This document shows positions 3,646 to 49,684 of a DNA stretch of 50,002 bases, piece by piece (within the stretch, counting starts at the first letter, position 1; each line of letters starts with the position of its first letter). The DNA is from Shigella phage phiL. The stretch lies in the sequence record PP134913. One strand, given 5' to 3'. Made by a program: the position numbers and the translations under genes. Under the pieces are notes generated by a model that had not been told where the DNA came from, searched no databases, and worked only from the letters and a program-made list of their open reading frames with translations.

Positions 3646-3981
3646 ATGAAATACGAAAATCGCGGTAACGAAATCATCAAAATCGAAAACGGCGTTGAGT
3701 ACATCATGGTAGCTTGCAAGGTTAACGGCATGGATTCCTTCGTATGGGAAGAAATCAAAACTGAAGACAAAGCTGCTAAATTCCTGACCTGTGTTAACCA
3801 GCCGGACGCGGAACGTGACACCTTCACCCGTTACGGTAAATATGAAATCGTTCGCGAGACTTCATGCTTCTGGTGGGTTAAGCCTAACAGCCAGTACAAA
3901 TTCCCGCGCAAAATAAGCAAGCGCACCATGCGTGAAGCTGGCTTCAAGAAAGCGTATGCCGCTGAGTTCGATATTGATTAA
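3646..3981 (+). CDS. hypothetical protein (111 aa)
   Basis: RBS CAGGAG upstream; promoter element 3563..3607. Confidence 0.5.
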   Translation: MKYENRGNEIIKIENGVEYIMVACKVNGMDSFVWEEIKTEDKAAKFLTCVNQPDAERDTFTRYGKYEIVRETSCFWWVKPNSQYKFPRKISKRTMREAGFKKAYAAEFDID

Positions 3982-4024
3982 TAGCACGAATTGCTAAACG
4001 CCCCGAAGGTGATCGGGGTATAGT
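3980..4024 (+). promoter_or_regulatory. conserved promoter-like element
   Basis: AATAGCACGAATTGCTAAA, 22 nt containing hairpin CCCCGA/TCGGGG, TATAGT. Confidence 0.55.
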
Positions 4025-4055
4025 AAACACATCAACAGCAAACGAGGAAAGAATC

Positions 4056-4427
4056 ATGCTTAAGCAGTTCACTGACCTGGACTTCTCAGCCAGCGAAGCA
4101 ATACATACTGACGAAAAAGAGCAGATTGCGATCGAGAACATTGCGCGCAAGATTTACAACAAGCAAGAGAAGTCCGTGAGGGCCGCTCTGATCGCTTATT
4201 ACGGCGTAAGTGATGCAATGGAGTGTGTTAACCGCGTAACGCGCGTGATGGACCATTTTGGCGTGTCTCGCTTCGTAGATAAAGATACTGGAGAGACGAT
4301 AATCCAGCTTAACAATCCATCAATGCGTACCGAGCTTGGCAATATTGCATTATGGGGAGTGGCAAACTACTCAATCACCGTCAATTCCTGCATTGCGCAC
4401 AGTGTTAAGGAGGCATTGTATGAGTGA
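4056..4427 (+). CDS. hypothetical protein (123 aa)
   Basis: RBS GAGGAAAG; promoter element 3980..4024. Confidence 0.5.
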   Translation: MLKQFTDLDFSASEAIHTDEKEQIAIENIARKIYNKQEKSVRAALIAYYGVSDAMECVNRVTRVMDHFGVSRFVDKDTGETIIQLNNPSMRTELGNIALWGVANYSITVNSCIAHSVKEALYE

Positions 4428-4620
4428 TAATATTTACCGCGTGGTGGCGATCTCACGCAAGACGCAAAAGAGCGTAGTTGCCTACATGGGAAATAGCGCA
4501 ATTGAGGCAACAGACGCCTTCGAGCTACTGAAGAATAACGAAGGATTTATGAACACGTTCCGAGTTCGACTTGAGCGTCTCGAACCTGTTATCATTGATG
4601 AAGCGCGAAAGCTATCCTGA
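4420..4620 (+). CDS. hypothetical protein (66 aa)
   Basis: ATG 4420 after AAGGAGG; overlaps upstream stop (trimmed from track ORF 4336..4620). Confidence 0.45.
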   Translation: MSDNIYRVVAISRKTQKSVVAYMGNSAIEATDAFELLKNNEGFMNTFRVRLERLEPVIIDEARKLS

Positions 4621-16848: not shown

Positions 16849-18633
16849 ATGGCTTTATACAGACGCGGTACTGCATCAATGGATGCAGACGGTACGGTTC
16901 ACGGAACAGATACAAAATGGAAAGATCAGCTTGCTCTGATTCGAGTCGGTGCAACTATCGTATTCCTGGAGCAACCAATTAAGCTGGCTGTAATTAGCGA
17001 TATTGTGAGCGACACAGAGCTAAAGGCTATCTCTACGGATGGTCAGACCGCATCTGACGGAAAGTATGTGATCTTGCTTAACGATTCGTTAACTGTTAAC
17101 GGCTTAGCTCAAAACGTTGCCGAGACGCTTCGATACTATCAAAGCAAAGAGACTGAGATCGCGGCAGCTATAGATCTGATAAATCAGCTTGATATGAATA
17201 AACTTGAGCAAATAGTTGCTGATGTGAATAAGGCGAAATCTGATTCTCAAGCTGCGCAAAATCAGGCTGAATTAGCGCGTGACGCAGCCAACGCTGCGCG
17301 TGATGAAACTAACTCAATCAAGAGTCAGACACAGCAGATTGTTGACAGTGCTGTCGGTGGAATTAATGCCGCAAAAGATCAGGCTATCACTGATATCGGC
17401 TCTAAGGAATCATCTGTCATCTCTCACATCGACACGGAAGAGGCTTCGGCTATTCAGGCAATTAATGATGCTAAAGGTGATTTATCGGTTTACGTTAACG
17501 ACGCTCAAACGGCAGCGCAAACGGCAACCTCTGCAAAAAACGATGCTCAGGCAGCGCGTGACGATGCCGTAAGATCAAAAGATGCGGCTTCGGTAAGCGC
17601 TCAAGAAGCTAAAGACGCAGCTAATAGCATTAATGCCGATAATCTTTTAACTAAGGATGGTAATCTTTCTGGTCTTGTGGACAAAAAAGAGTCTAGAAAA
17701 AATATTGGTTTAGGTGAAAATGATGCTGTTAACTTTCTTACTATTAACACCACGGGGGCTATAGGTGCAGGAAGGAACTCATGGAACGGTTCTAACTGGG
17801 GTAGTCAGTCCATATTGTCATCATTGATGATTATGTCACCTGATGGAGTGTCTGAGCCAGGGATTTACGTCAGAAAAAAAAATAGCAGTGATGGATATGC
17901 TGGGACTTTATTATTTTATGAGGGGGCAAACTACTTCGAGACTAACAATAGATTCAGGGCCAATCAGTTTTTATGCCAGAAAACAACTATGGGTTATAAC
18001 CAGATGTGGTCCGCTTCATGCTTTCAAGGAAATGCTTACACCGCTGATAGTGGTGTTGAAAACTATCAATCACTTATTGCTGGATCGTGCGACACTAGAG
18101 GTCAGGGATACTTTGGCGGCGTAGCTTTTGGCATGATGACTACGGGCAATCCTGAATGGCCCAGGGCACAAATATCAGTAGGTGCTCAAGATATGGATGG
18201 AGCAGGCAATATTGGTATGCAAATGCATTTCAGGTTTATTGCTTCAGGGCAAATATCTTACTCTGGACCGCAAGCGGCTGGAAGTTTCCAACAAGTTCCG
18301 GCATCTGACAGAAATATAAAGCACAGCATAAAGGATGATAAATCAAGCATTGCATACAACAATATAAAATCAATGAGATTTAGGAACTTTATATTTAACG
18401 ATGATGAGCAAGAAAGGGTAAGGCGAGGTGTTATAGCTCAGGAGATAGAAGAGATCGACAATCTATATGTTAAGAGAAGGTTGTATGAGAGCCACGAGCT
18501 AAACGGGCCAAAAGTTGAAAGGCTTGAGCTTGATACAACTCCTTTATTGCTTGACACTATGAGAGCTTTGCAGGATACAATAAAGAAAGTTGAAGAGTTA
18601 CAAGAAGAGATAAAAATGTTGAAGTCCAAATGA
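16849..18633 (+). CDS. tail fibre protein with C-terminal intramolecular chaperone (self-cleaving) domain
   Basis: Coiled-coil N-terminal half, Gly-rich middle, C-terminal SDRNIK cleavage motif at residue 486 (nt 18304). Confidence 0.75.
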   Translation: MALYRRGTASMDADGTVHGTDTKWKDQLALIRVGATIVFLEQPIKLAVISDIVSDTELKAISTDGQTASDGKYVILLNDSLTVNGLAQNVAETLRYYQSKETEIAAAIDLINQLDMNKLEQIVADVNKAKSDSQAAQNQAELARDAANAARDETNSIKSQTQQIVDSAVGGINAAKDQAITDIGSKESSVISHIDTEEASAIQAINDAKGDLSVYVNDAQTAAQTATSAKNDAQAARDDAVRSKDAASVSAQEAKDAANSINADNLLTKDGNLSGLVDKKESRKNIGLGENDAVNFLTINTTGAIGAGRNSWNGSNWGSQSILSSLMIMSPDGVSEPGIYVRKKNSSDGYAGTLLFYEGANYFETNNRFRANQFLCQKTTMGYNQMWSASCFQGNAYTADSGVENYQSLIAGSCDTRGQGYFGGVAFGMMTTGNPEWPRAQISVGAQDMDGAGNIGMQMHFRFIASGQISYSGPQAAGSFQQVPASDRNIKHSIKDDKSSIAYNNIKSMRFRNFIFNDDEQERVRRGVIAQEIEEIDNLYVKRRLYESHELNGPKVERLELDTTPLLLDTMRALQDTIKKVEELQEEIKMLKSK

Positions 18634-18636
18634 TAA

Positions 18637-18662
18637 AATCCCCGCATTGCGGGGATTTTTGT
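18637..18662. terminator. intrinsic terminator between tail fibre and SSB genes
   Basis: Hairpin TCCCCGCATTGCGGGGA followed by TTTTTG. Confidence 0.65.
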
Positions 18663-19075
18663 TAGAACGGGATATCATCATCGAAAGTTGATTGAGGATT
18701 TGGCTGTGGCTGTGATTGCGTTCGTTGTTGTTGCTGCGGTGCTCGTTGTTGATTGCTTTGTCCTCGCTGACTAAATACCAACTTAGGGAAATCAGCAGCC
18801 TGCAATGAATTGTAAGTCGTTCCGTTATGCTCACGGGATGAGATCTTCAACGTTTCGCAAGATACTGAAATTACCCGACCAACCTGAAACGCTTCGCGAT
18901 ACCAGTCAGCAAGACCAGGCTTTCCACCATCGCTAAAAAAGAATGTGTAGTTTGTGTATTCGCGATCGCCATCACGAGGCTTGTAGCTTTCTGCCAGTTC
19001 GATGATATAAGTATTTCCTCCGTTACGTTCCAGAATCTTTGGTTCTTTGCGGATCTCGCCAGTGATAATATGCAT
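18662..19075 (-). CDS. ssb: single-stranded DNA-binding protein
   Basis: Gln/Pro-rich linker and acidic C-terminal tail DDDIPF. Confidence 0.7.
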   Translation of the reverse strand: MHIITGEIRKEPKILERNGGNTYIIELAESYKPRDGDREYTNYTFFFSDGGKPGLADWYREAFQVGRVISVSCETLKISSREHNGTTYNSLQAADFPKLVFSQRGQSNQQRAPQQQQRTQSQPQPNPQSTFDDDIPF

Positions 19076-19121
19076 GTTTTTCTCTCCTAAATTTTATGGG
19101 CGACCGAAGCCGCCCTGATGA

Positions 19122-19769
19122 TTATTCGAAGTTGGTGATTGATTGAGATTGTACAGGCTTCGCGCTCGTTGCTTCAACCTGTTTTTTCTGTTCCGGTTGC
19201 GCTGGGCGAATGCCGCGAGCTTTTCCGATCTCAAACTTAGCTTTCAGTGCGTTGTAGTGATCCTGAATGATTGACTTGCTCGCTGTGTCAGTCTGGCGGT
19301 AAGCATTGGCCCAAACATCCTTCAGTGACTCGATATCTTCACACGCATCAAGTTCTTTCTTCCAGTCCTTGACAGATTTCACCGCAAGCTGCGCGTCGTC
19401 GTCACTTTGGCTAATTCCCAGCGCGGCGGCTAGAGAGTAACGTCGAGCATACGTCATTGCGGAACCTACGCCTTGAGGATCTCGTTTTGCAATCGGCATC
19501 ATCATGAAGAATTTGGCCCACTGCCCTGATTTGTGAATCAGCATAGTTTCAAGATGGAAAGTAGTTTCTGTACTGGTATCCAGCATTGATTGCAGGATCA
19601 TGATATCGTTGTCGGTTAACGCCGGACTGACTGCCGCCATCATTGCGTCAAGAGTTGCGTATGAATTTTTCAGGTGATTGTTTTTCGCGTCCTTCTTTGC
19701 CTTCGCGAATTTATTGCGAGCGTTGAACAGAGCCGGAAGGATTTCGTTTGTTTCTGGTGATAATTGCAT
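19122..19769 (-). CDS. erf: Erf-family single-strand annealing protein
   Basis: KNSYATLDA and YARRYSLAA motifs; start set at ATG with AGGAGA RBS. Confidence 0.65.
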   Translation of the reverse strand: MQLSPETNEILPALFNARNKFAKAKKDAKNNHLKNSYATLDAMMAAVSPALTDNDIMILQSMLDTSTETTFHLETMLIHKSGQWAKFFMMMPIAKRDPQGVGSAMTYARRYSLAAALGISQSDDDAQLAVKSVKDWKKELDACEDIESLKDVWANAYRQTDTASKSIIQDHYNALKAKFEIGKARGIRPAQPEQKKQVEATSAKPVQSQSITNFE

Positions 19770-19843
19770 CTTAACTTCTCCTGATTGGTGTATGAGGTGC
19801 ATTATAACACCTCATTAATTATTTGTTTAGCTATTTGTGCCGT

Positions 19844-20908
19844 TTACTTGTTTTGGTAGCGTACCCATGACGGCGTTTCAAGTTCAATCTCGCTTGCATC
19901 GCCAGCGTATCCAGGCCAAACATCCATTTCAGAGCAAGCCTTGTAGGTGTGGACTACGCTAATGTACTGACTACGACCGATCCTGATTTGCTCCATCGTC
20001 ATACGATAAGCAAGGGCGATGTAAGGCTCTTTTTTCTCCTGTGCCAGCAATCGAACTACGATCGGGATATCTTCCGGAAAATTTCCTTCAAAAGCGCCAG
20101 CCTGGATTGCACGTCGTAGCAGGTCATGCTGCAAGGCCATTTTCAGATAATACCCGTGATTGTATGCCAGTCTCGGGAACTCTAACGGGTTGGCGCTCAT
20201 CGTAGTTTTGAAGTCAGTAATAATCAGCGCTTCCGGGAAAATTACGTCTTCATACACCGGATCGCCATTCTCATCATAACCAGTCAGCACACGACCCGGT
20301 ACATTCTCTTTGTAGTCAAGATGATCGAGTCGAACCTTAACTTTGACACCGGATATCTCACCGAAGATTGAAATCTCACGCTGCGCCGTTTCACTGTTGA
20401 TGCACGCTTCATGATCCGGGTTTTGCTCAAGGATGGCTCTCATCTTCATGCAGGCGTCGTATTTGTCGGCGTCAACGAGTTTCTTTCCTTCAGCACGCGC
20501 CTCAGCTTCTGCGATCAGTTCAATCAGGTATTGAACGTTGAGTTCTTCACCACAATCAACCATCATTTTGATGAGGTCAGGGTACTGTTTACCGGATGTA
20601 CCTTTCAGTCCAAAAGATTTTAACTTTGCTGCCAGCGCCGCCTGCGAAGTAATCAGATCCTTAAACTCTGATGGAGCCGGGCAGCGGGAATACGATGCAG
20701 TAAACAGATCGCGACTCTCAAAGTTAGTATGCGACTGAGTACCAAATTCCAGCGCTTTAGTTGTCTCGTTCTTCTTGAATCGCCAGTTAGCCGGGCAAGT
20801 CTGATAGATTTCAGCAAGGCTAGATCCGCTTACATACTCCGCAGCCCAACCTTCATTGCTGTGATACTCGTCGTTAGAAAGCTGGCTTGATGTGAATACC
20901 TGGAACAT
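19844..20908 (-). CDS. PD-(D/E)xK exonuclease (RecE/YqaJ-like)
   Basis: ITDFKT D-x-K motif; adjacent to Erf; sigma70-like promoter upstream. Confidence 0.65.
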   Translation of the reverse strand: MFQVFTSSQLSNDEYHSNEGWAAEYVSGSSLAEIYQTCPANWRFKKNETTKALEFGTQSHTNFESRDLFTASYSRCPAPSEFKDLITSQAALAAKLKSFGLKGTSGKQYPDLIKMMVDCGEELNVQYLIELIAEAEARAEGKKLVDADKYDACMKMRAILEQNPDHEACINSETAQREISIFGEISGVKVKVRLDHLDYKENVPGRVLTGYDENGDPVYEDVIFPEALIITDFKTTMSANPLEFPRLAYNHGYYLKMALQHDLLRRAIQAGAFEGNFPEDIPIVVRLLAQEKKEPYIALAYRMTMEQIRIGRSQYISVVHTYKACSEMDVWPGYAGDASEIELETPSWVRYQNK

Positions 20909-20939
20909 TGTGTTTATCTCCTTCGTTTACGATGGATTC

Positions 20940-20967
20940 ATTATAGCCATTAACAGCGTTTAGTCAA
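20940..20967 (-). promoter_or_regulatory. sigma70-like promoter TTGACT-N16-TATAAT for exonuclease/Erf/SSB block
   Basis: Near-consensus hexamers on minus strand about 30 nt upstream of ATG 20908. Confidence 0.6.
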
Positions 20968-21376
20968 CCTGATACATGTAATTGGTGTGTAATAGCGTGT
21001 CTATATCGCTCAAGTTACAACCAGCATTAACAGAATCAATGGCTTAAGTATGTTTTTATGTTATGTCTATTGTGTAATGCTTGTAACCGCTTTTTCTTAG
21101 AAATGCAGAGATACCTACAAATGGAATCCAGATTGATTAAATTTTGAACATATATGATAGAGGTTTGACGAATCAATCAAATCACCTGTTACACGATAGA
21201 CAACTGTTACACAACAATAATTATATATATAAAGCTAAAATTAAATATTATCTATCTATATATATTATATAGAGTTTTTATCATATCTCTCTGCTGTCGG
21301 ATGTGGTGGATTTTGTAACACCCGCTCCGGTTACAAAAATAGACACCTGTTACACGAAAAAATTGTAATAGTGCTA

Positions 21377-21405
21377 TTGCAATAAAAGTAAATGCGACAT
21401 ACAAT
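21377..21405 (+). promoter_or_regulatory. sigma70-like promoter TTGCAA-N17-TACAAT for lipoprotein gene
   Basis: Hexamers with 17-nt spacer about 25 nt upstream of start. Confidence 0.55.
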
Positions 21406-21434
21406 GCAATTACACTAACGACGAGGACATGCAA

Positions 21435-21665
21435 ATGAAAAAGTTAATCACCATTATCGCTGCGGCAGTCATCCTGACTGGTTGCTCTCAGAATATTAAA
21501 AATGGAGACTGCGTTACTTACTCTTACGGATCTTGCATGATGCGATTCGTTGACGGCAGGAAGATTCCGGCTGGCGAAATCGATATGCGATTCAAAGGTC
21601 TGTCATCCGACGACGATCAGGGTAACTTCAGCGGCAAGGTATCAATCAAAACTAAAGAGTGGTAA
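21435..21665 (+). CDS. small lipoprotein, candidate superinfection-exclusion protein
   Basis: Signal peptide with lipobox LTGC; own sigma70-like promoter 21377..21405. Confidence 0.55.
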   Translation: MKKLITIIAAAVILTGCSQNIKNGDCVTYSYGSCMMRFVDGRKIPAGEIDMRFKGLSSDDDQGNFSGKVSIKTKEW

Positions 21666-21667
21666 TT

Positions 21668-22624
21668 ATGGGGCAAGGAATATACATAAATCTAAATGAC
21701 GGTCGTCCGGCAATGGAGATAACCTCTGGACTTCGCGCACCGTCATGGTGCGGACCAATACAAGCGGACGGGGTTGATTCATCCGGATCGGTTTTTGATT
21801 TTGGTCTGCAAATGAGTCCTGGATCTACTGCTTTTTGCCTTCCATCTCAGGCTATCTACATAGATGATATGGATTACATACCAGAGGTGTATTATTTAAC
21901 AAGTTTCCAGAAGGTTAATGATTCAACAGGTCGAATAACGGTAGGTAATTTTAACGGGCACGGTGGGAGAAGGATGAGATTTTATGGCAACTGCTACGAA
22001 ATTCTCCCCGCTCAGGCTGGTAATCAAGGCATACTCGTTAACGATTCAACTAACTTCGCGGCGATACCGAATAACGCAAGGTTAATGAGCGCTGCATTTG
22101 TTGGAGGTATTCAGGTTAACGGTCAAGCTCAGTTGCCAGTACAGGGCGTTCCTTTCGGTATGTGGGATAATCCAAACGTAACACTTGAATCTGACGGCAA
22201 CACAATATGGTGCAGGGATGCAAACTATAACGGGATTGATGACGTTGGCGCGAGCGTATACGTGCAACTCGTAATATTTAATAACACTCCACCACCCCCA
22301 GGACCAGGAATAACCATGAGTAATCCTGCTGGTCAGATCGTCTTCTCAAGCGTTAGACGCCCATTCGTTCTCGGCGGGACTATGGCGATAAATGACGGGT
22401 GGCAGTGGTGTGGTGGATTTTTCCCAATACTAAGAACAGGTACGATATGTAGAGTTACAGGTGGATATAATAACATTAGATACAAGGGCGTGTGTATGAG
22501 CGGCGGTAACGTTAGAAGCGCCCCAGGAACAAGAGTAGGTAATTATTCCACCAAAAGCGGAGCGCGATTCCCCTTCAATATAAACATTTCAATGCCAATT
22601 CCTTTCACTCCGAACATGTATTAA
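21668..22624 (+). CDS. hypothetical two-domain protein with PPPPGPG linker (318 aa)
   Basis: Co-oriented with lipoprotein; convergent on J gene; terminator 22623..22652. Confidence 0.5.
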   Translation: MGQGIYINLNDGRPAMEITSGLRAPSWCGPIQADGVDSSGSVFDFGLQMSPGSTAFCLPSQAIYIDDMDYIPEVYYLTSFQKVNDSTGRITVGNFNGHGGRRMRFYGNCYEILPAQAGNQGILVNDSTNFAAIPNNARLMSAAFVGGIQVNGQAQLPVQGVPFGMWDNPNVTLESDGNTIWCRDANYNGIDDVGASVYVQLVIFNNTPPPPGPGITMSNPAGQIVFSSVRRPFVLGGTMAINDGWQWCGGFFPILRTGTICRVTGGYNNIRYKGVCMSGGNVRSAPGTRVGNYSTKSGARFPFNINISMPIPFTPNMY

Positions 22625-22652
22625 AAAAAGGGGGCCAATCGGCCCCTTTCTG
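22623..22652. terminator. bidirectional terminator between 21668..22624 and J gene
   Basis: Hairpin GGGGCCAATCGGCCCC flanked by A7 and TTTC. Confidence 0.65.
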
Positions 22653-25600
22653 TTACCAGACACCAACAACCACTCGGCCCCCGTTAGGTAGGTTGACCGT
22701 GATACCGTTATTGTTTATCTGAACCGTGTTATTTGTTCCGTTAAATGCAAACTCTCCGTTATTTGCGTAAATTCTACCCCTCACTGTTGCATTCATGAAT
22801 GAAGCGTCGCCATTCTTGTTTATGGCCCATCCATTATTCCCATCCCAATTGTTAGATTGAATCCAGTTTCCAATCATGGCATTAGTAATAAAGCCATCCT
22901 TAATGATCGCGCTACTCAGGATAACTTGACCATTCTCAACCACGAAAGGATACTGAGTCTGACCATTCATTCCTGTCATGATTGCAAATCGTGATGCCTC
23001 AAACAAAATCTGCGCCTTAACCGCATCTCCGGAACCAATCAGAGACATAGCCATGCCTGCACTGTATTCTTGGCCGTTATACTTCAGACCGAGCTTGACG
23101 CCGTACATTGCACCAGTCGAATCCGCATTGCTCCACGAATCAAGTTTTTGAGAAAGTGCTGCCTCATTATTCCCAAGCCTCGCGCTTAACGACAAGTCAG
23201 CTTGCGTTCTCGCCTCAGTCTCGTTTGCTATAGCCTCTCTGATATCAGTCAAACTTGCCTGGATATCATCACCAATCTCTGCCTTGAGTTGGTCAATTTC
23301 ACGCGATAGCGCTCCAGTCTCAGTCGCTATAACTTCACGCAATTCGCTATTGCTTGCGCTAATCTGATCGTCAAAACTTGCCTTCAACTGCTCGATCGAC
23401 GTCACTCGCGCCTGCGTCTCATCAGCAATAAGTTTCAGTGATTTCGTGTACTCAGCTTTTCGTTTTCCGTTCTCCTTCTTCATGTAGATCGCGTCTTTAT
23501 CATTGGCGAGCGCGTTTTCTATTGCTGCCTCTGCGTTAGCTGCGTTCTGCGCCGCGTTGTCTGTTGCGTTATCAACAAGCCACTCGTAACCCGGCGAGTT
23601 TTCGATATCGACAGAAATCTCTCCGATGATATCGTCAACGTTTGTTGATGCCATACCTCTGACAAAATCAGTCCACTGAGACACGTTACCGATCCTGTCA
23701 ACCGTCCTTACCCGATACCACACAATATTCCCTCCAGGCATCGGTGAGTGATAATACTCATGCTGCGGGTACGGAATCAAAGAAAGCAAACTTGCGTTAT
23801 CCACTGTTCCATCCGGTGACTGTTGCAACTCTGTATAGGCCGTATCTCCAGAACCATCAGAGAACCCCCATTTTGTACGGATACCAAAAACAACATCATC
23901 CGTAGCTGTAAGGTTAATAGGTCGTCCCGGCTCACCTTGTTTACCCGTCAGCGTCGCAGCTACGATATTTGACCATCCTGAAGTCGTACCTGAGCCAGCT
24001 ACAGATCGAACGCGAACCTGATAGTTTCCAGCGTAAATCCCTTCAACGTAAACCTCTTTGTTTGCCGTCTGCGGAACGTTCTGCCAGTTGCCATTATCCT
24101 TTCGCCACTGGACGTCATAGAAAACTGCGTACGGAACTTTATCCCAGCTAACAATCATCGTTTCTACGCTCATCCCCTGGACGATTCGTGATTCTGAGGA
24201 CACTTGCACGTTTTCCGGTCTAGGGATCTGATCTGGTTCAACGATGCTCGTCGGTCGGTCGTCGATATTAACTCCGTAATCAATCTCATCGTACTTGTTA
24301 GGATCGTACTCCACCGCCGTGATTTTGTAGGTAAATTCCTCATCATCATCGCCCTTATCGATTTTTGTCACGACGTACTGCTGTAACGCAATGTCGGTGC
24401 GGTCGATAGCGAATACCGTGTTTGGCTTCACAGGAAAGCCAAAGCCGATGTTAACCTCTATAGTCTTACCATCCGCACTAACACTTGAGATTGTGCGCTT
24501 CACGGGCTTACCATCGGGCTTATTTACGATAATAAAGTCACCTGCGCGAGCATCAACGCGGAACGGCAGGAAAATCTGACTACCGGATACTTCGAGCAAA
24601 CGCCCTGACAGGTTCATCGTCAAGTTACTTGACCAGAAGTTATCAGCTATTGCTACAACATCTCCGATTGTCGGGATCATGCCCTCAAGTCCGGTAGCGA
24701 AGTTTACCGTAGTGCTGCGGAGGTTAGTTTTCAGAATCCACCTCCCGCGTCGGTTGGCCTCGCTTCGACGTGTGCAACCGATCGCTGTAATACTCGTTAC
24801 GTTGTTCCCAAAACGTAGAGTAGCCTCACGATCGAATACTGGCTCAACGTCCTGCTGATACATGTTTTGTTCATCATCAAACATCACATTACACGTCGTG
24901 TACATGCTCTTTTCGCTTGCGAACGTGTAGGAGAAGTCACCATTAACCACGTTGTCGTTAGTGAAGATGTACGCAGGTTCACGCGGCCTGTCGATGATTA
25001 CCGAAATGCTTTCACCATTCCAAAAGCTCATGCCACGGAAGATTGAGCAAATATCTCGAATCACCTTGTACGCATCAGTCTGTGACTGAATTATCACGTC
25101 ACAAAGGTAGCGAGGCTCCGTACCGCCTTTACCGTCAGGAACCATCTGATCGCAATATTGCGCCGCCTCATATAGCGCCCATTTATCGACAGATATTCCA
25201 AGCTCTTTCTGATCCAGCCCATAACGCTGATTAATCATCAGGTCATAAAGCACCCAAGCCGGATTATTCGTCCACGCCTTCTTAAAAGTTCCATCCCAAT
25301 TTCCGTTATAAGTTCGCGATTCTGGATCATAGTTTGACGGAACGTTTACAATCTTCCAGCGCTTACGAATTGAGATCGTAGGCAACTGGTTTGGGAACAT
25401 CTTCGAATCGAACTCGACGAAAAGAAGACCAGTCAGAGGGTAACGGAATTTAGCATCAATCACCTCGGCATAGCTCTTTACCTGAATCGCGTCAACAACG
25501 TTCGAGTCGTTAGAGTCTGGAGTTTTACGAACGACTCTGAATATCACCTGATTGTTGAAGTTAGGTAGGTTTACACGCCTGCTTCGATCGTAACCTGACA

Positions 25601-26102
25601 TTGTTTTGCCTTCGATTACATCGGTGAGCACCGTCTCAAACGAGCCGCCATCAACAGCTTGTTGCACCTCATACTCAACTCTTACGCCGTTTTTATCACC
25701 GTTGCTTTCAATTCGTACTCCGCGAGGCATAAACATTTTGATACGGATTGCAGAAAGCGTTTTGTTGGTTACTGAGATCGTGTATGGGTTATCTGTAGTA
25801 ACCTCACGGCTTACAGTTACCTCACTAGAGCTATCTTCCATCCCCTTGATATATTCCTGAGTCTGCGTCCCCGGCCTAAACTCTGCCTTTACTCCCTCGA
25901 AGTTAAATGAGCCATCCTCGTTTTGCACCGGGACTGAGTTAAACATCAACTGCTTTAGGCTGAATGTTTCGTCAATCTCGCCATCAGACACAGCTAACAG
26001 GATCTTGATTTTGTTGATTGAGATTAGATTATCTTCCATCTCAACTGGCTTATGCGGCTTAGGTGAACCGCCTTTCGATCCGCTTATCACTTTTTGAATC
26101 AT
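22653..26102 (-). CDS. central tail fibre / host specificity protein (lambda J-like)
   Basis: 1149 aa at end of tail module after I/K/L/M-like genes. Confidence 0.85.
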   Translation of the reverse strand: MIQKVISGSKGGSPKPHKPVEMEDNLISINKIKILLAVSDGEIDETFSLKQLMFNSVPVQNEDGSFNFEGVKAEFRPGTQTQEYIKGMEDSSSEVTVSREVTTDNPYTISVTNKTLSAIRIKMFMPRGVRIESNGDKNGVRVEYEVQQAVDGGSFETVLTDVIEGKTMSGYDRSRRVNLPNFNNQVIFRVVRKTPDSNDSNVVDAIQVKSYAEVIDAKFRYPLTGLLFVEFDSKMFPNQLPTISIRKRWKIVNVPSNYDPESRTYNGNWDGTFKKAWTNNPAWVLYDLMINQRYGLDQKELGISVDKWALYEAAQYCDQMVPDGKGGTEPRYLCDVIIQSQTDAYKVIRDICSIFRGMSFWNGESISVIIDRPREPAYIFTNDNVVNGDFSYTFASEKSMYTTCNVMFDDEQNMYQQDVEPVFDREATLRFGNNVTSITAIGCTRRSEANRRGRWILKTNLRSTTVNFATGLEGMIPTIGDVVAIADNFWSSNLTMNLSGRLLEVSGSQIFLPFRVDARAGDFIIVNKPDGKPVKRTISSVSADGKTIEVNIGFGFPVKPNTVFAIDRTDIALQQYVVTKIDKGDDDEEFTYKITAVEYDPNKYDEIDYGVNIDDRPTSIVEPDQIPRPENVQVSSESRIVQGMSVETMIVSWDKVPYAVFYDVQWRKDNGNWQNVPQTANKEVYVEGIYAGNYQVRVRSVAGSGTTSGWSNIVAATLTGKQGEPGRPINLTATDDVVFGIRTKWGFSDGSGDTAYTELQQSPDGTVDNASLLSLIPYPQHEYYHSPMPGGNIVWYRVRTVDRIGNVSQWTDFVRGMASTNVDDIIGEISVDIENSPGYEWLVDNATDNAAQNAANAEAAIENALANDKDAIYMKKENGKRKAEYTKSLKLIADETQARVTSIEQLKASFDDQISASNSELREVIATETGALSREIDQLKAEIGDDIQASLTDIREAIANETEARTQADLSLSARLGNNEAALSQKLDSWSNADSTGAMYGVKLGLKYNGQEYSAGMAMSLIGSGDAVKAQILFEASRFAIMTGMNGQTQYPFVVENGQVILSSAIIKDGFITNAMIGNWIQSNNWDGNNGWAINKNGDASFMNATVRGRIYANNGEFAFNGTNNTVQINNNGITVNLPNGGRVVVGVW

Positions 26103-49470: not shown

Positions 49471-49515
49471 ACTATATCGCAACCCCGGAATTGAGTTTTA
49501 ACAAAAAGTGCTATT
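49471..49515 (-). promoter_or_regulatory. conserved promoter-like element
   Basis: AATAGCACTTTTTGTTAAAA ... TATAGT AACCACATCGACAACGAACGAGGG. Confidence 0.55.
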
Positions 49516-49684
49516 CGCAAGTGATTTCATTTGATGTGATTGGTAGCAATACGTTTCCAACCATCACGAAAGTAGTAACCTGGTTTCCGGTTTCATGGCA
49601 TCTCTCTTTTACCTCTCCGCAGCCGGACACTACCATGATAGCCAGGGCGACCGCCGCCATCATGCAAATCAGAATGCGCATCAT
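49511..49684 (-). CDS. small lipoprotein (57 aa)
   Basis: Signal peptide MMRILICMMAAVALAIMVVSGC with lipobox; GGGAG RBS. Confidence 0.5.
   Translation of the reverse strand: MMRILICMMAAVALAIMVVSGCGEVKERCHETGNQVTTFVMVGNVLLPITSNEITCE

What the first reader, a model, noticed from the sequence alone, without database searches (positions are those of the whole stretch)
21435..22624. Promoter-driven lipoprotein plus poly-proline two-domain protein, convergent on the tail-tip gene
A 76-aa lipoprotein and a 318-aa protein with a PPPPGPG linker form a separate plus-strand unit with its own sigma70-like promoter and a bidirectional terminator shared with the J gene. Lipoproteins encoded next to receptor-binding genes in T1-like and T5-like phages often block the phage receptor (superinfection exclusion). 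The 318-aa partner has no recognisable motif. A second small lipoprotein lies at 49511..49684.
Basis: inference. Interest (0 to 1): 0.5.

Follow-up and report, generated by a model that had tools for sequence, protein, structure and literature searches.

The report
LptD-type receptor-binding and exclusion gene pair
The two genes are a known host-recognition cassette of T1-like phages: the 318-aa protein is the tail-tip receptor-binding protein, predicted to bind the outer-membrane LPS exporter LptD, and the small lipoprotein blocks that receptor from inside an infected cell.

Summary
A 76-aa lipoprotein gene (21435..21665) and a 318-aa gene (21668..22624) form a plus-strand pair. They converge on the J-like tail-tip gene (22653..26102, minus strand) across a GC-rich hairpin.

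- **Lipoprotein:** it belongs to Pfam PF24052 and matches Rtp45. Rtp45 is the superinfection-exclusion lipoprotein solved by cryo-EM bound to the periplasmic face of LptDE.
- **318-aa partner:** it is not motif-less. It is a full-length DUF6453/PF20051 protein. It is 42.7% identical to the phage Oekolampad receptor-binding protein solved on LptDE (PDB 9rpt) and 67.8% identical to the RBP of the LptD-dependent phage OzMSK. It is 99.4% identical to the homologue in Shigella phage SH6, which is already published as a predicted LptD binder.

The window is a Tunavirus, 96% identical to Shigella phage Shfl1. Compared with T1, the FhuA/Cor cassette has been replaced. The swapped block runs from the lipoprotein signal peptide (~21487) to the last ~60 codons of J (~22849).

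LptD use by this allele is inferred, not tested. The kind is already known, so interest is low.

The parts
21377..21405 (+). Candidate sigma70-type promoter (TTGCAA-17 nt-TACAAT) for the lipoprotein-RBP pair
   Evidence: Consensus scan gives 9 of 12 matches, but the count in the region is not above shuffled expectation. The element is identical upstream of cor in T1. Function is inferred only.
21435..21665 (+). Superinfection-exclusion lipoprotein, Rtp45 family (76 aa precursor, 59-60 aa mature)
   Evidence: Pfam PF24052 E 4.6e-25 over the full length, plus the lipid-attachment site PF08139. PDB 9rps_D (Rtp45 on LptDE) E 1e-9, 37.9% identity over 58 aa. Lipobox LTGC, Cys17, Ser at +2. C26/C34 align with the Rtp45 Cys30-Cys38 disulfide.
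21435..21487 (+). Signal-peptide segment shared with T1 Cor; left recombination junction of the swapped cassette
   Evidence: Nucleotide homology to T1 runs from 18635 to 21487 at 91.6% and then stops. The signal peptide is 17/18 identical to that of T1 Cor, and the mature parts are unrelated. This explains the PHROG Cor hit confined to residues 1-31.
21668..22624 (+). Receptor-binding protein of the central tail fibre, LptD-type (DUF6453), 318 aa
   Evidence: Pfam PF20051 E 1.2e-126, residues 4-295 against profile positions 1-291 of 291. PDB 9rpt_C (Oekolampad RBP on open LptDE) E 5e-66, 42.7% identity. The AF2 model (pLDDT 84.3) has 9rpt_C as its only significant fold match, E 7e-20, target-normalised TM 0.90. 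67.8% identity to the OzMSK RBP and 99.4% to SH6. No transmembrane segment.
22629..22648 (.). GC-rich hairpin between the two convergent stop codons; probable bidirectional intrinsic terminator
   Evidence: dG -17.6 kcal/mol, z -3.3. Scored as a terminator on the minus strand; on the plus strand it is followed by TTTCTGTT. Hairpins with different stem sequences occupy the same position in AHP42, Bas02, Bas85 and Bas20.
22653..22848 (-). C-terminal tip of the J-like protein (about the last 60 aa), LptD-cassette type; presumed docking site for the RBP and right junction of the swapped cassette
   Evidence: Nucleotide homology to T1 resumes only at 22849. Over the last 25 aligned columns the window matches AHP42 24/25 and Bas02 21/25, but T1 only 4/23. 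Over the 100 columns before that it matches T1 83/86. A preprint reports the GpJ C-terminal tip as a receptor-specificity-associated feature (10.64898/2026.04.02.716166).
22653..26102 (-). J-like central tail fibre / tail-tip protein (1149 aa)
   Evidence: Pfam Phage_Tail_Tip, FNIII-A_GpJ and Phage-tail_3. PHROG 31, central tail fiber J. 93% identical to T1 ST33 over residues 1-1131.

Best explanation
This is the host-recognition cassette of a Shfl1-like Tunavirus, of the LptD type.

The 318-aa protein is the receptor-binding protein (RBP). Its highly conserved N-terminus (residues 1-25), probably together with the conserved but poorly modelled segment 113-140, docks on the C-terminal tip of the J-like fibre. 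That tip was acquired together with the RBP gene. The variable beta-sandwich end inserts into the extracellular face of the LPS translocon LptD/LptE, as the Oekolampad RBP does with an open LptD barrel. This gives irreversible adsorption and triggers genome delivery.

The 76-aa product is exported, lipidated on Cys17 and sorted to the inner leaflet of the outer membrane (Ser at +2). Like Rtp45, it binds the periplasmic side of LptDE, pushes a hairpin into the barrel and displaces extracellular loop 4. Incoming RBPs can then no longer bind. That excludes superinfecting phages and spares progeny from being lost on cell debris.

The two genes are translationally close (2-nt gap) and probably co-transcribed, ending at a hairpin shared with J.

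Shown here: family membership, fold, synteny and cassette boundaries. Inferred: LptD as the actual receptor of this allele, virion location, exclusion phenotype and promoter use.
For: RBP:
- PF20051 E 1.2e-126.
- 9rpt_C E 5e-66 over residues 1-318.
- The AF2 model matches 9rpt_C only (E 7e-20, target-normalised TM 0.90).
- 38-42% identity at 100% coverage to the RBPs of the experimentally LptD-dependent Bas02, Bas20 and Bas18, and 67.8% to OzMSK (PMC8594841, PMC13035648). This meets the >30% identity / >99% coverage rule that separates the LptD family from the unrelated FhuA, BtuB and YncD families (10.64898/2026.04.02.716166).
- No similarity to any T1 protein (best E 0.76).

Lipoprotein:
- PF24052 E 4.6e-25.
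- Rtp45 match E 1e-9 with the Cys pair conserved.
- Lipobox present, Ser at +2.

Synteny: the arrangement lipoprotein, then RBP, convergent on J with a hairpin, is the same in Bas02, AHP42 and Bas85.

J tip: it switches from T1-like to LptD-cassette-like in the last ~60 aa.

Conservation: N-terminus 0.85 against 0.45 for residues 26-112. This agrees with the published mapping of conserved residues to the tail-proximal base (PMC13035648).

Mechanism: the RBP and Rtp45 mechanisms come from cryo-EM in PMC12685063.
Against: - No experiment on this allele or on any Shfl1/SH6-type Tunavirus was found. The Tunavirus members with tested receptors (T1, Bas13) use FhuA.
- The presumed receptor-contacting part is the most divergent: 23% identity to Oekolampad over residues 31-112. 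A shifted specificity is therefore not excluded.
- The lipoprotein is only 38% identical to Rtp45 over 58 aa, and its C-terminal third does not align in the PDB search.
- The authors report that structure prediction for Rtp45 is unreliable, so I did not model the lipoprotein.
- The promoter is not statistically supported.
- Co-transcription of a late structural gene with an exclusion gene is assumed, not shown.
Confidence: 0.85

Rival explanations
1. Same cassette architecture (tail-tip RBP plus cognate exclusion lipoprotein), but this divergent allele recognises a receptor other than LptD, or a different set of LptD loops or conformational state than Oekolampad does.
For: The variable region is only 23% identical to the solved RBP over residues 31-112, and the C-terminal loop aligned with Oekolampad Gln299 differs. 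No experimental receptor data exist for the Shfl1/SH6 clade. Horizontal exchange and diversification at this locus are documented (PMC8594841).
Against: Every experimentally characterised member of this family uses LptD, across identities as low as 33% (PMC12685063, PMC13035648, 10.64898/2026.04.02.716166). OzMSK, at 67.8% identity, is LptD-dependent. The partner lipoprotein is of the Rtp45 (LptDE-binding) family. The J tip is nearly identical to that of the Rogue1-like phage AHP42, whose RBP belongs to the same group as OzMSK.
Confidence: 0.08
2. One reading: both genes form an accessory (moron-like) superinfection-exclusion unit, with the 318-aa protein as a non-structural partner or membrane protein. 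This is also what the PHROG and RefSeq label 'membrane protein' implies.
For: PHROG 1265 is labelled 'membrane protein; moron, auxiliary metabolic gene and host takeover', and RefSeq records call the homologue 'membrane protein'. The gene shares a strand and probably a transcript with the exclusion lipoprotein, opposite to the tail operon.
Against: There is no hydrophobic segment (maximum 19-residue Kyte-Doolittle mean 0.99) and no signal peptide. The fold is all-beta. [quoted passage not shown] Allelic variants at this locus track receptor specificity (PMC8594841). The conserved N-terminus and the co-transferred J tip fit a fibre-attached protein.
Confidence: 0.04
3. The lipoprotein is a Cor-type protein that inactivates FhuA, as in T1, phi80 and N15.
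For: PHROG 1119 (Cor) hit at E 6.8e-6. tblastn hit to T1 cor at 45% over 53 aa. Same genomic position and the same upstream region as T1 cor.
Against: The similarity is confined to the signal peptide and the first few mature residues (PHROG match covers residues 1-31; signal peptide 17/18 identical). Nucleotide homology to T1 ends at 21487, inside the signal-peptide coding part. T1 Cor falls below the PF24052 threshold (17.7 against 27 bits), whereas the window protein scores 87.8. The mature parts do not align.
Confidence: 0.03

Closest known systems
RBP of phage Oekolampad (Bas18), PDB 9rpt/9rpw/9rqi; also Rtp44 of phage Rtp and the RBPs of Bas01/Bas02, FritzHoffmann and OzMSK (DUF6453/PF20051)
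   Same: Full-length homology: 42.7% identity to Oekolampad, 67.8% to OzMSK, 38.4% to Bas02. Same all-beta fold (target-normalised TM 0.90). Same length class (311-332 aa). Same conserved N-terminus and TPPxxGxG core motif. Same position, convergent on gpJ, preceded by a lipoprotein gene.
   Different: It sits in a Tunavirus backbone, whose type member T1 uses FhuA. The variable beta-sandwich region (residues 26-112) and the C-terminal loops differ strongly from the solved protein. No binding or genetic data exist for this allele.
Rtp45, superinfection-exclusion lipoprotein of phage Rtp (PDB 9rps chain D), Pfam PF24052
   Same: Same Pfam family across the full length. Lipobox present. Conserved Cys pair (C26/C34 here, C30/C38 in Rtp45). 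Conserved PAGE(I/V)D(M/I/V)R(F/Y) segment. Encoded immediately upstream of the RBP gene.
   Different: Only about 38% identity over 58 aa, with a different C-terminal third. Its signal peptide is the T1 Cor one (a recombination junction). Binding to LptDE is untested.
Shigella phages Shfl1, SH6, Sfin-1, pSf-2 and phi2457T (Tunavirus)
   Same: Same genome type (Shfl1 is 96.2% identical over 25 kb). RBP 98.7-99.4% identical; lipoprotein about 89-92% identical. SH6 is listed in the literature as a predicted LptD-dependent phage (PMC13035648).
   Different: A few substitutions only. In those records the genes are annotated 'hypothetical protein', 'membrane protein' or 'lipoprotein'.
T1 host-recognition locus (ST32, ST31 and cor/ST30), FhuA type
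   Same: Same slot between gpJ and the recE-like exonuclease. Same upstream region and same lipoprotein signal peptide. Same logic of an RBP plus a receptor-blocking lipoprotein.
   Different: The proteins are unrelated. The T1 RBP-locus genes are co-oriented with J and only cor is convergent. The J C-terminal tip differs (4/23 identical over the last 25 aligned columns).
T5 pb5 / Llp (FhuA)
   Same: Functional analogy: a monomeric tail-tip RBP plus a small outer-membrane lipoprotein that blocks the receptor from the periplasmic side.
   Different: No sequence similarity (no PDB hit to pb5 or Llp at E<=1). Llp acts by long-range allostery on a TonB-dependent transporter, whereas Rtp45 physically displaces LptD loops (PMC12685063).

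Membership tests
LptD-type receptor-binding protein of small siphophages (DUF6453 / PF20051; Oekolampad RBP, Rtp44) | Full-length match to the family profile | tested here: met
   PF20051 E 1.2e-126, 422 bits against a cutoff of 25, profile positions 1-291 of 291. PHROG 1265 E 7.5e-126.
LptD-type receptor-binding protein of small siphophages (DUF6453 / PF20051; Oekolampad RBP, Rtp44) | >30% identity over >99% coverage to RBPs of experimentally LptD-dependent phages (rule from 10.64898/2026.04.02.716166) | tested here: met
   Bas02 38.4%, FritzHoffmann 40.4% and OzMSK 67.8%, all at 100% coverage. Oekolampad 42.7% over 314 aligned residues.
LptD-type receptor-binding protein of small siphophages (DUF6453 / PF20051; Oekolampad RBP, Rtp44) | Same fold as the solved RBP | tested here: met
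   AF2 model with pLDDT 84.3 and pTM 0.84. Foldseek against the PDB gives 9rpt_C at E 7.4e-20, target-normalised TM 0.90, rmsd 2.4 A; the next hit has E 1.0.
LptD-type receptor-binding protein of small siphophages (DUF6453 / PF20051; Oekolampad RBP, Rtp44) | Encoded directly downstream of (convergent on) the gpJ homologue, with a cognate J C-terminal tip | tested here: met
   28-nt gap to the J stop codon. Same arrangement in Bas02, AHP42, Bas85 and Bas20. The J tip matches AHP42 24/25 and T1 4/23.
LptD-type receptor-binding protein of small siphophages (DUF6453 / PF20051; Oekolampad RBP, Rtp44) | Binds LptD/LptE; infection depends on LptD extracellular loops | not testable with these tools
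   Needs plating on lptD mutants or in vitro binding. No published data were found for the Shfl1/SH6 clade.
LptD-type receptor-binding protein of small siphophages (DUF6453 / PF20051; Oekolampad RBP, Rtp44) | Present in the virion at the tail tip | not testable with these tools
   Needs virion proteomics or cryo-EM.
Rtp45-like superinfection-exclusion lipoprotein (PF24052) | Match to the family profile above the curated cutoff | tested here: met
   PF24052 E 4.6e-25, 87.8 bits against a cutoff of 27, residues 3-76. PHROG 4281 E 4e-36. 9rps_D E 1.1e-9.
Rtp45-like superinfection-exclusion lipoprotein (PF24052) | Lipoprotein signal peptide with a lipobox, and outer-membrane sorting (no Asp at +2) | tested here: met
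   LTGC with Cys17 and Ser18. PF08139 E 3e-4.
Rtp45-like superinfection-exclusion lipoprotein (PF24052) | Conserved cysteine pair corresponding to the Rtp45 Cys30-Cys38 disulfide | tested here: met
   C26 and C34 align with the Rtp45 pair. They are conserved in AHP42, Bas02, Bas85 and SU10.
Rtp45-like superinfection-exclusion lipoprotein (PF24052) | Binds the periplasmic face of LptDE and confers exclusion | not testable with these tools
   Needs expression and plating assays or a co-purification.
Cor (FhuA-inactivating lipoprotein of T1, phi80 and N15) | Homology of the mature protein to Cor | tested here: not met
   The PHROG 1119 match covers residues 1-31 only. Identity to T1 Cor is confined to the signal peptide and the mature parts do not align.
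T5 pb5 / Llp | Sequence similarity to pb5 or Llp | tested here: not met
   Neither protein gives a PDB hit to pb5 or Llp chains at E<=1. This is a functional analogy only.

The most novel reading that the evidence does not exclude
The Shfl1/SH6-type allele has never been tested experimentally, and it is most divergent exactly where the solved homologue contacts LptD. It could engage LptD differently (other loops, or the closed state) or use another receptor. A further possibility is that the Rtp45-family lipoprotein is a portable LptDE plug used beyond its cognate RBP: strong homologues sit alone in the early region of Kuravirus podophages such as SU10, which have no DUF6453 RBP and no known protein receptor. 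LptDE might then be a wider phage target, or a target of inter-phage competition, than currently recognised.
Probability: 0.12. Interest if true: 0.55.

Novelty: already known. Interest (0 to 1): 0.15.

Why it matters
For annotation, the two genes should be labelled 'receptor-binding protein (LptD-type)' and 'superinfection exclusion lipoprotein (Rtp45 family)'. The public records for near-identical phages still call them 'hypothetical protein' or 'membrane protein'.

In practice, this T1-like phage should infect fhuA (tonA) 'T1-resistant' laboratory strains. It should be blocked instead by LptD loop-11 or loop-4 mutations.

The mapped boundaries give a concrete unit for receptor retargeting. 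The block runs from the signal peptide to the last ~60 codons of J, so an engineered swap should carry the J tip together with the RBP.

None of this changes current understanding of the system.

Tried and rejected
- **Cor membership.** Rejected. The PHROG and tblastn hits to Cor are a signal-peptide artefact of a recombination junction.
- **'Membrane protein / moron' label for the 318-aa protein.** Rejected. It has no hydrophobic segment and an all-beta fold, and its homologue was solved as a soluble RBP.
- **PPPPGPG as a flexible inter-domain linker.** Not supported. It lies in the conserved core with invariant F204, P209, G214 and N219, and pLDDT is 76-88 there. I could not inspect model coordinates, so I cannot count domains.
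- **Promoter significance.** The scan gives no enrichment over shuffles, and conservation with T1 is uninformative at 91% flank identity.
- **Published receptor data for this allele.** A search for Shfl1 plus LptD found none.
- **JNUWD (LptD-dependent).** I tried to fetch OR544902 to measure RBP identity, but the record is not in the collection. Its relative CY1_Cui-2023 has an RBP 60.5% identical to the window's, which I did not use as evidence.
- **Lipoprotein structure.** Not modelled, because the authors of the Rtp45 structure report that predictions for it are wrong.
- **Second lipoprotein (49511..49684).** PHROG 8628 of unknown function, no Pfam family and no PDB relative.
- **First PHROG call.** It failed on a reversed coordinate pair and was repeated.

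Full report
**What is there.** The window is a complete-length T1-like genome. Over 25 kb it is 96.2% identical to Shigella phage Shfl1 and about 91% identical to Sfin-4/5, pSf-2 and phi2457T. It is colinear with T1 at 85-92% nucleotide identity over most of its length.

At the flagged coordinates two plus-strand ORFs are present. The first is a 76-aa ORF from the ATG at 21435. An in-frame ATG at 21429 is not conserved in T1. The second is a 318-aa ORF, 21668..22624, that starts two nucleotides after the first stops. The J-like tail-tip gene (22653..26102, minus strand) ends 28 nt downstream. The gap holds a GGGGCC/GGCCCC hairpin with an A-run on one side and a T-rich run on the other (dG -17.6 kcal/mol, z -3.3). 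The scan scores it as a terminator on the minus strand. Four other phages carry hairpins with different stem sequences at the same place, which supports a conserved two-way terminator.

The proposed promoter, TTGCAA-17-TACAAT at 21377..21405, matches 9 of 12 positions. Such matches are no more frequent here than in shuffled sequence, so it stays a plausible guess.

**What the two proteins are.** The lipoprotein is a full-length member of Pfam PF24052, 'Phage lipoprotein family' (E 4.6e-25). Its only meaningful PDB match is 9rps chain D (E 1e-9). That chain is Rtp45 of phage Rtp, solved by cryo-EM bound to Shigella LptDE (PMC12685063). It has a lipobox (LTGC, Cys17) with Ser at +2, which suggests outer-membrane sorting. 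C26 and C34 align with the Rtp45 Cys30-Cys38 disulfide.

The 318-aa protein is a full-length DUF6453/PF20051 protein (E 1.2e-126). Its top PDB sequence hit is 9rpt chain C (E 5e-66, residues 1-318). That chain is the receptor-binding protein of phage Oekolampad (Bas18), solved on an open state of LptDE. Identity is 42.7%. An AlphaFold2 model built on 43 homologues (pLDDT 84.3, pTM 0.84, all-beta) has 9rpt_C as its only significant fold match (E 7e-20, target-normalised TM 0.90; the next hit has E 1.0). It has no hydrophobic segment, so the 'membrane protein' label in PHROGs and RefSeq is not supported.

[quoted passage not shown] Within a family, members share more than 30% identity over more than 99% coverage.

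The window protein covers 100% of its length against the RBPs of three LptD-dependent phages: 38.4% to Bas02, 40.4% to FritzHoffmann and 67.8% to OzMSK. OzMSK fails to infect two lptD mutants and an engineered loop-11 deletion (PMC13035648). The window protein is also 99.4% identical to the SH6 protein, which that paper lists among predicted LptD-dependent phages. It has no similarity to any T1 product (best E 0.76).

LptD is therefore the well-supported prediction. I found no experiment on the Shfl1/SH6 clade, and the tested Tunavirus members, T1 and Bas13, use FhuA.

**Cassette boundaries.** In T1 the same slot, between J (ST33) and the recE-like exonuclease (ST29), holds ST32 and ST31 co-oriented with J, and then cor (ST30) convergent on it.

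Nucleotide homology between the window and T1 runs up to 21487, inside the lipoprotein signal-peptide coding region, and resumes at 22849, inside J. As a result the signal peptide is 17/18 identical to that of T1 Cor while the mature parts are unrelated. This explains the misleading PHROG 'Cor' hit on residues 1-31. T1 Cor itself scores below the PF24052 threshold.

At the other end, the J protein is T1-like (83/86 identical) until about 60 residues from its C-terminus. It then switches to the type found with LptD cassettes: over the last 25 aligned columns it matches AHP42 24/25 and Bas02 21/25, but T1 only 4/23. The exchangeable module is therefore the mature lipoprotein, the RBP, the terminator and the J tip. 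This fits the preprint's remark that the GpJ tip tracks receptor type, presumably because it is the docking surface for the RBP.

**Anatomy of the RBP.** Across 43 homologues, residues 1-25 are the most conserved (mean 0.85). Residues 113-232 form a conserved core (about 0.71). Residues 26-112 are the most variable (0.45) and residues 233-318 are intermediate (0.58).

The PPPPGPG stretch (208-214) lies in the conserved core, with F204, P209, G214 and N219 invariant. It is not a low-complexity linker.

The N-terminus and residues 113-140 are conserved yet poorly modelled (pLDDT 49-63). In the cryo-EM structure the tail-proximal part of the RBP is disordered and only 254 residues are resolved. 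I infer that these segments fold on the J tip.

**Mechanism (inferred by homology).** The RBP sits on the J tip and inserts its variable end into the extracellular mouth of LptD, contacting loops EL3-5 and EL11 in the solved homologue. The lipoprotein binds the periplasmic rim of LptDE, pushes a hairpin up the barrel and displaces EL4, so the RBP can no longer bind. This gives superinfection exclusion and protects progeny from debris (PMC12685063).

The gene order and tight spacing of lipoprotein and RBP are conserved in Bas02, AHP42 and Bas85: the two genes overlap by one nucleotide in Bas02 and AHP42 and lie two nucleotides apart in Bas85. This suggests co-expression.

**Verdict.** The partner, however, is the receptor-binding protein itself, a virion component with a strong family signature. 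The relevant receptor is predicted to be LptD rather than the FhuA of the T1/T5 analogy.

The system is structurally and genetically characterised in the literature, and near-identical alleles sit in about 30 deposited phage records. Novelty is 'already known' and interest is low.

The residual open points are the untested receptor of this allele and a side observation. Kuravirus podophages such as SU10 carry a strong PF24052 homologue (E 2.6e-36) alone in their early region. I found no literature linking them to LptD.

Noticed in passing
L006 (Escherichia phage SU10, NC_027395) 3941..4222; also phages Paul, LAMP, ECBP2, Bas91 and Bas93: Gordonclarkvirinae/Kuravirus podophages encode a strong Rtp45-family lipoprotein (SU10 gp104, PF24052 E 2.6e-36). 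It sits among small early genes, with no DUF6453 RBP nearby. These phages have no known protein receptor, and no paper found links them to LptD. They may touch LptDE, or may exclude LptD-dependent competitor phages.
   Followed up: partly
window 22653..22848 (J codons ~1085-1149): The last ~60 residues of the J-like protein are mosaic. They are T1-like upstream and then switch to the type found with LptD cassettes in Rogunavirinae and Braunvirinae. The J tip seems to travel with the RBP gene.
   Followed up: yes
window 21435..21487: The lipoprotein signal peptide is 17/18 identical to that of T1 Cor, although the mature proteins are unrelated. The signal-peptide coding region and the upstream promoter region seem to act as a conserved recombination linker for swapping exclusion genes.
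   Followed up: yes
window 17685..18634 (3' part of the lateral tail fibre gene 16849..18633): There is a second break in nucleotide homology with T1, covering the C-terminal part of the 594-aa lateral tail fibre (T1 ST26 is 728 aa). The primary-receptor module has therefore also been exchanged relative to T1.
   Followed up: no
It belongs to PHROG 8628 (unknown function) and has no Pfam or PDB relative. By colinearity it corresponds to T1 ST72, in the early left-end region. It is shared with the FhuA-using T1, so it is not tied to the LptD cassette.
   Followed up: partly
window 20909..21434: A ~525-bp AT-rich intergenic region lies between the divergent recE-like exonuclease gene and the lipoprotein gene. 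The best promoter match in it points the other way (TTGACT-16-TATAAT, 11 of 12, minus strand, 20967..20940) and would drive the recombination genes.
   Followed up: no
L004 (phage FritzHoffmann, Bas20) 4385..4500: This LptD-dependent Nonagvirus has the DUF6453 RBP convergent on J but no lipoprotein gene upstream; only 116 bp separate it from the lateral tail fibre gene. The exclusion gene is therefore not an obligatory part of the cassette.
   Followed up: no
proteins P0025-P0062: DUF6453 homologues at 40-47% identity are common on multi-megabase chromosomal contigs of Citrobacter, Salmonella and E. coli. These are presumably prophages, so temperate siphophages seem to use this RBP family as well.
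   Followed up: no
window 21668..22624 and the lipoprotein gene, compared with Sfin-1, SH6 and Shfl1: Within the Shfl1-like clade the RBP is 98.7-99.7% identical at the protein level, whereas the adjacent lipoprotein is only 88-92% identical. The exclusion protein is evolving faster than the RBP it antagonises.
   Followed up: no
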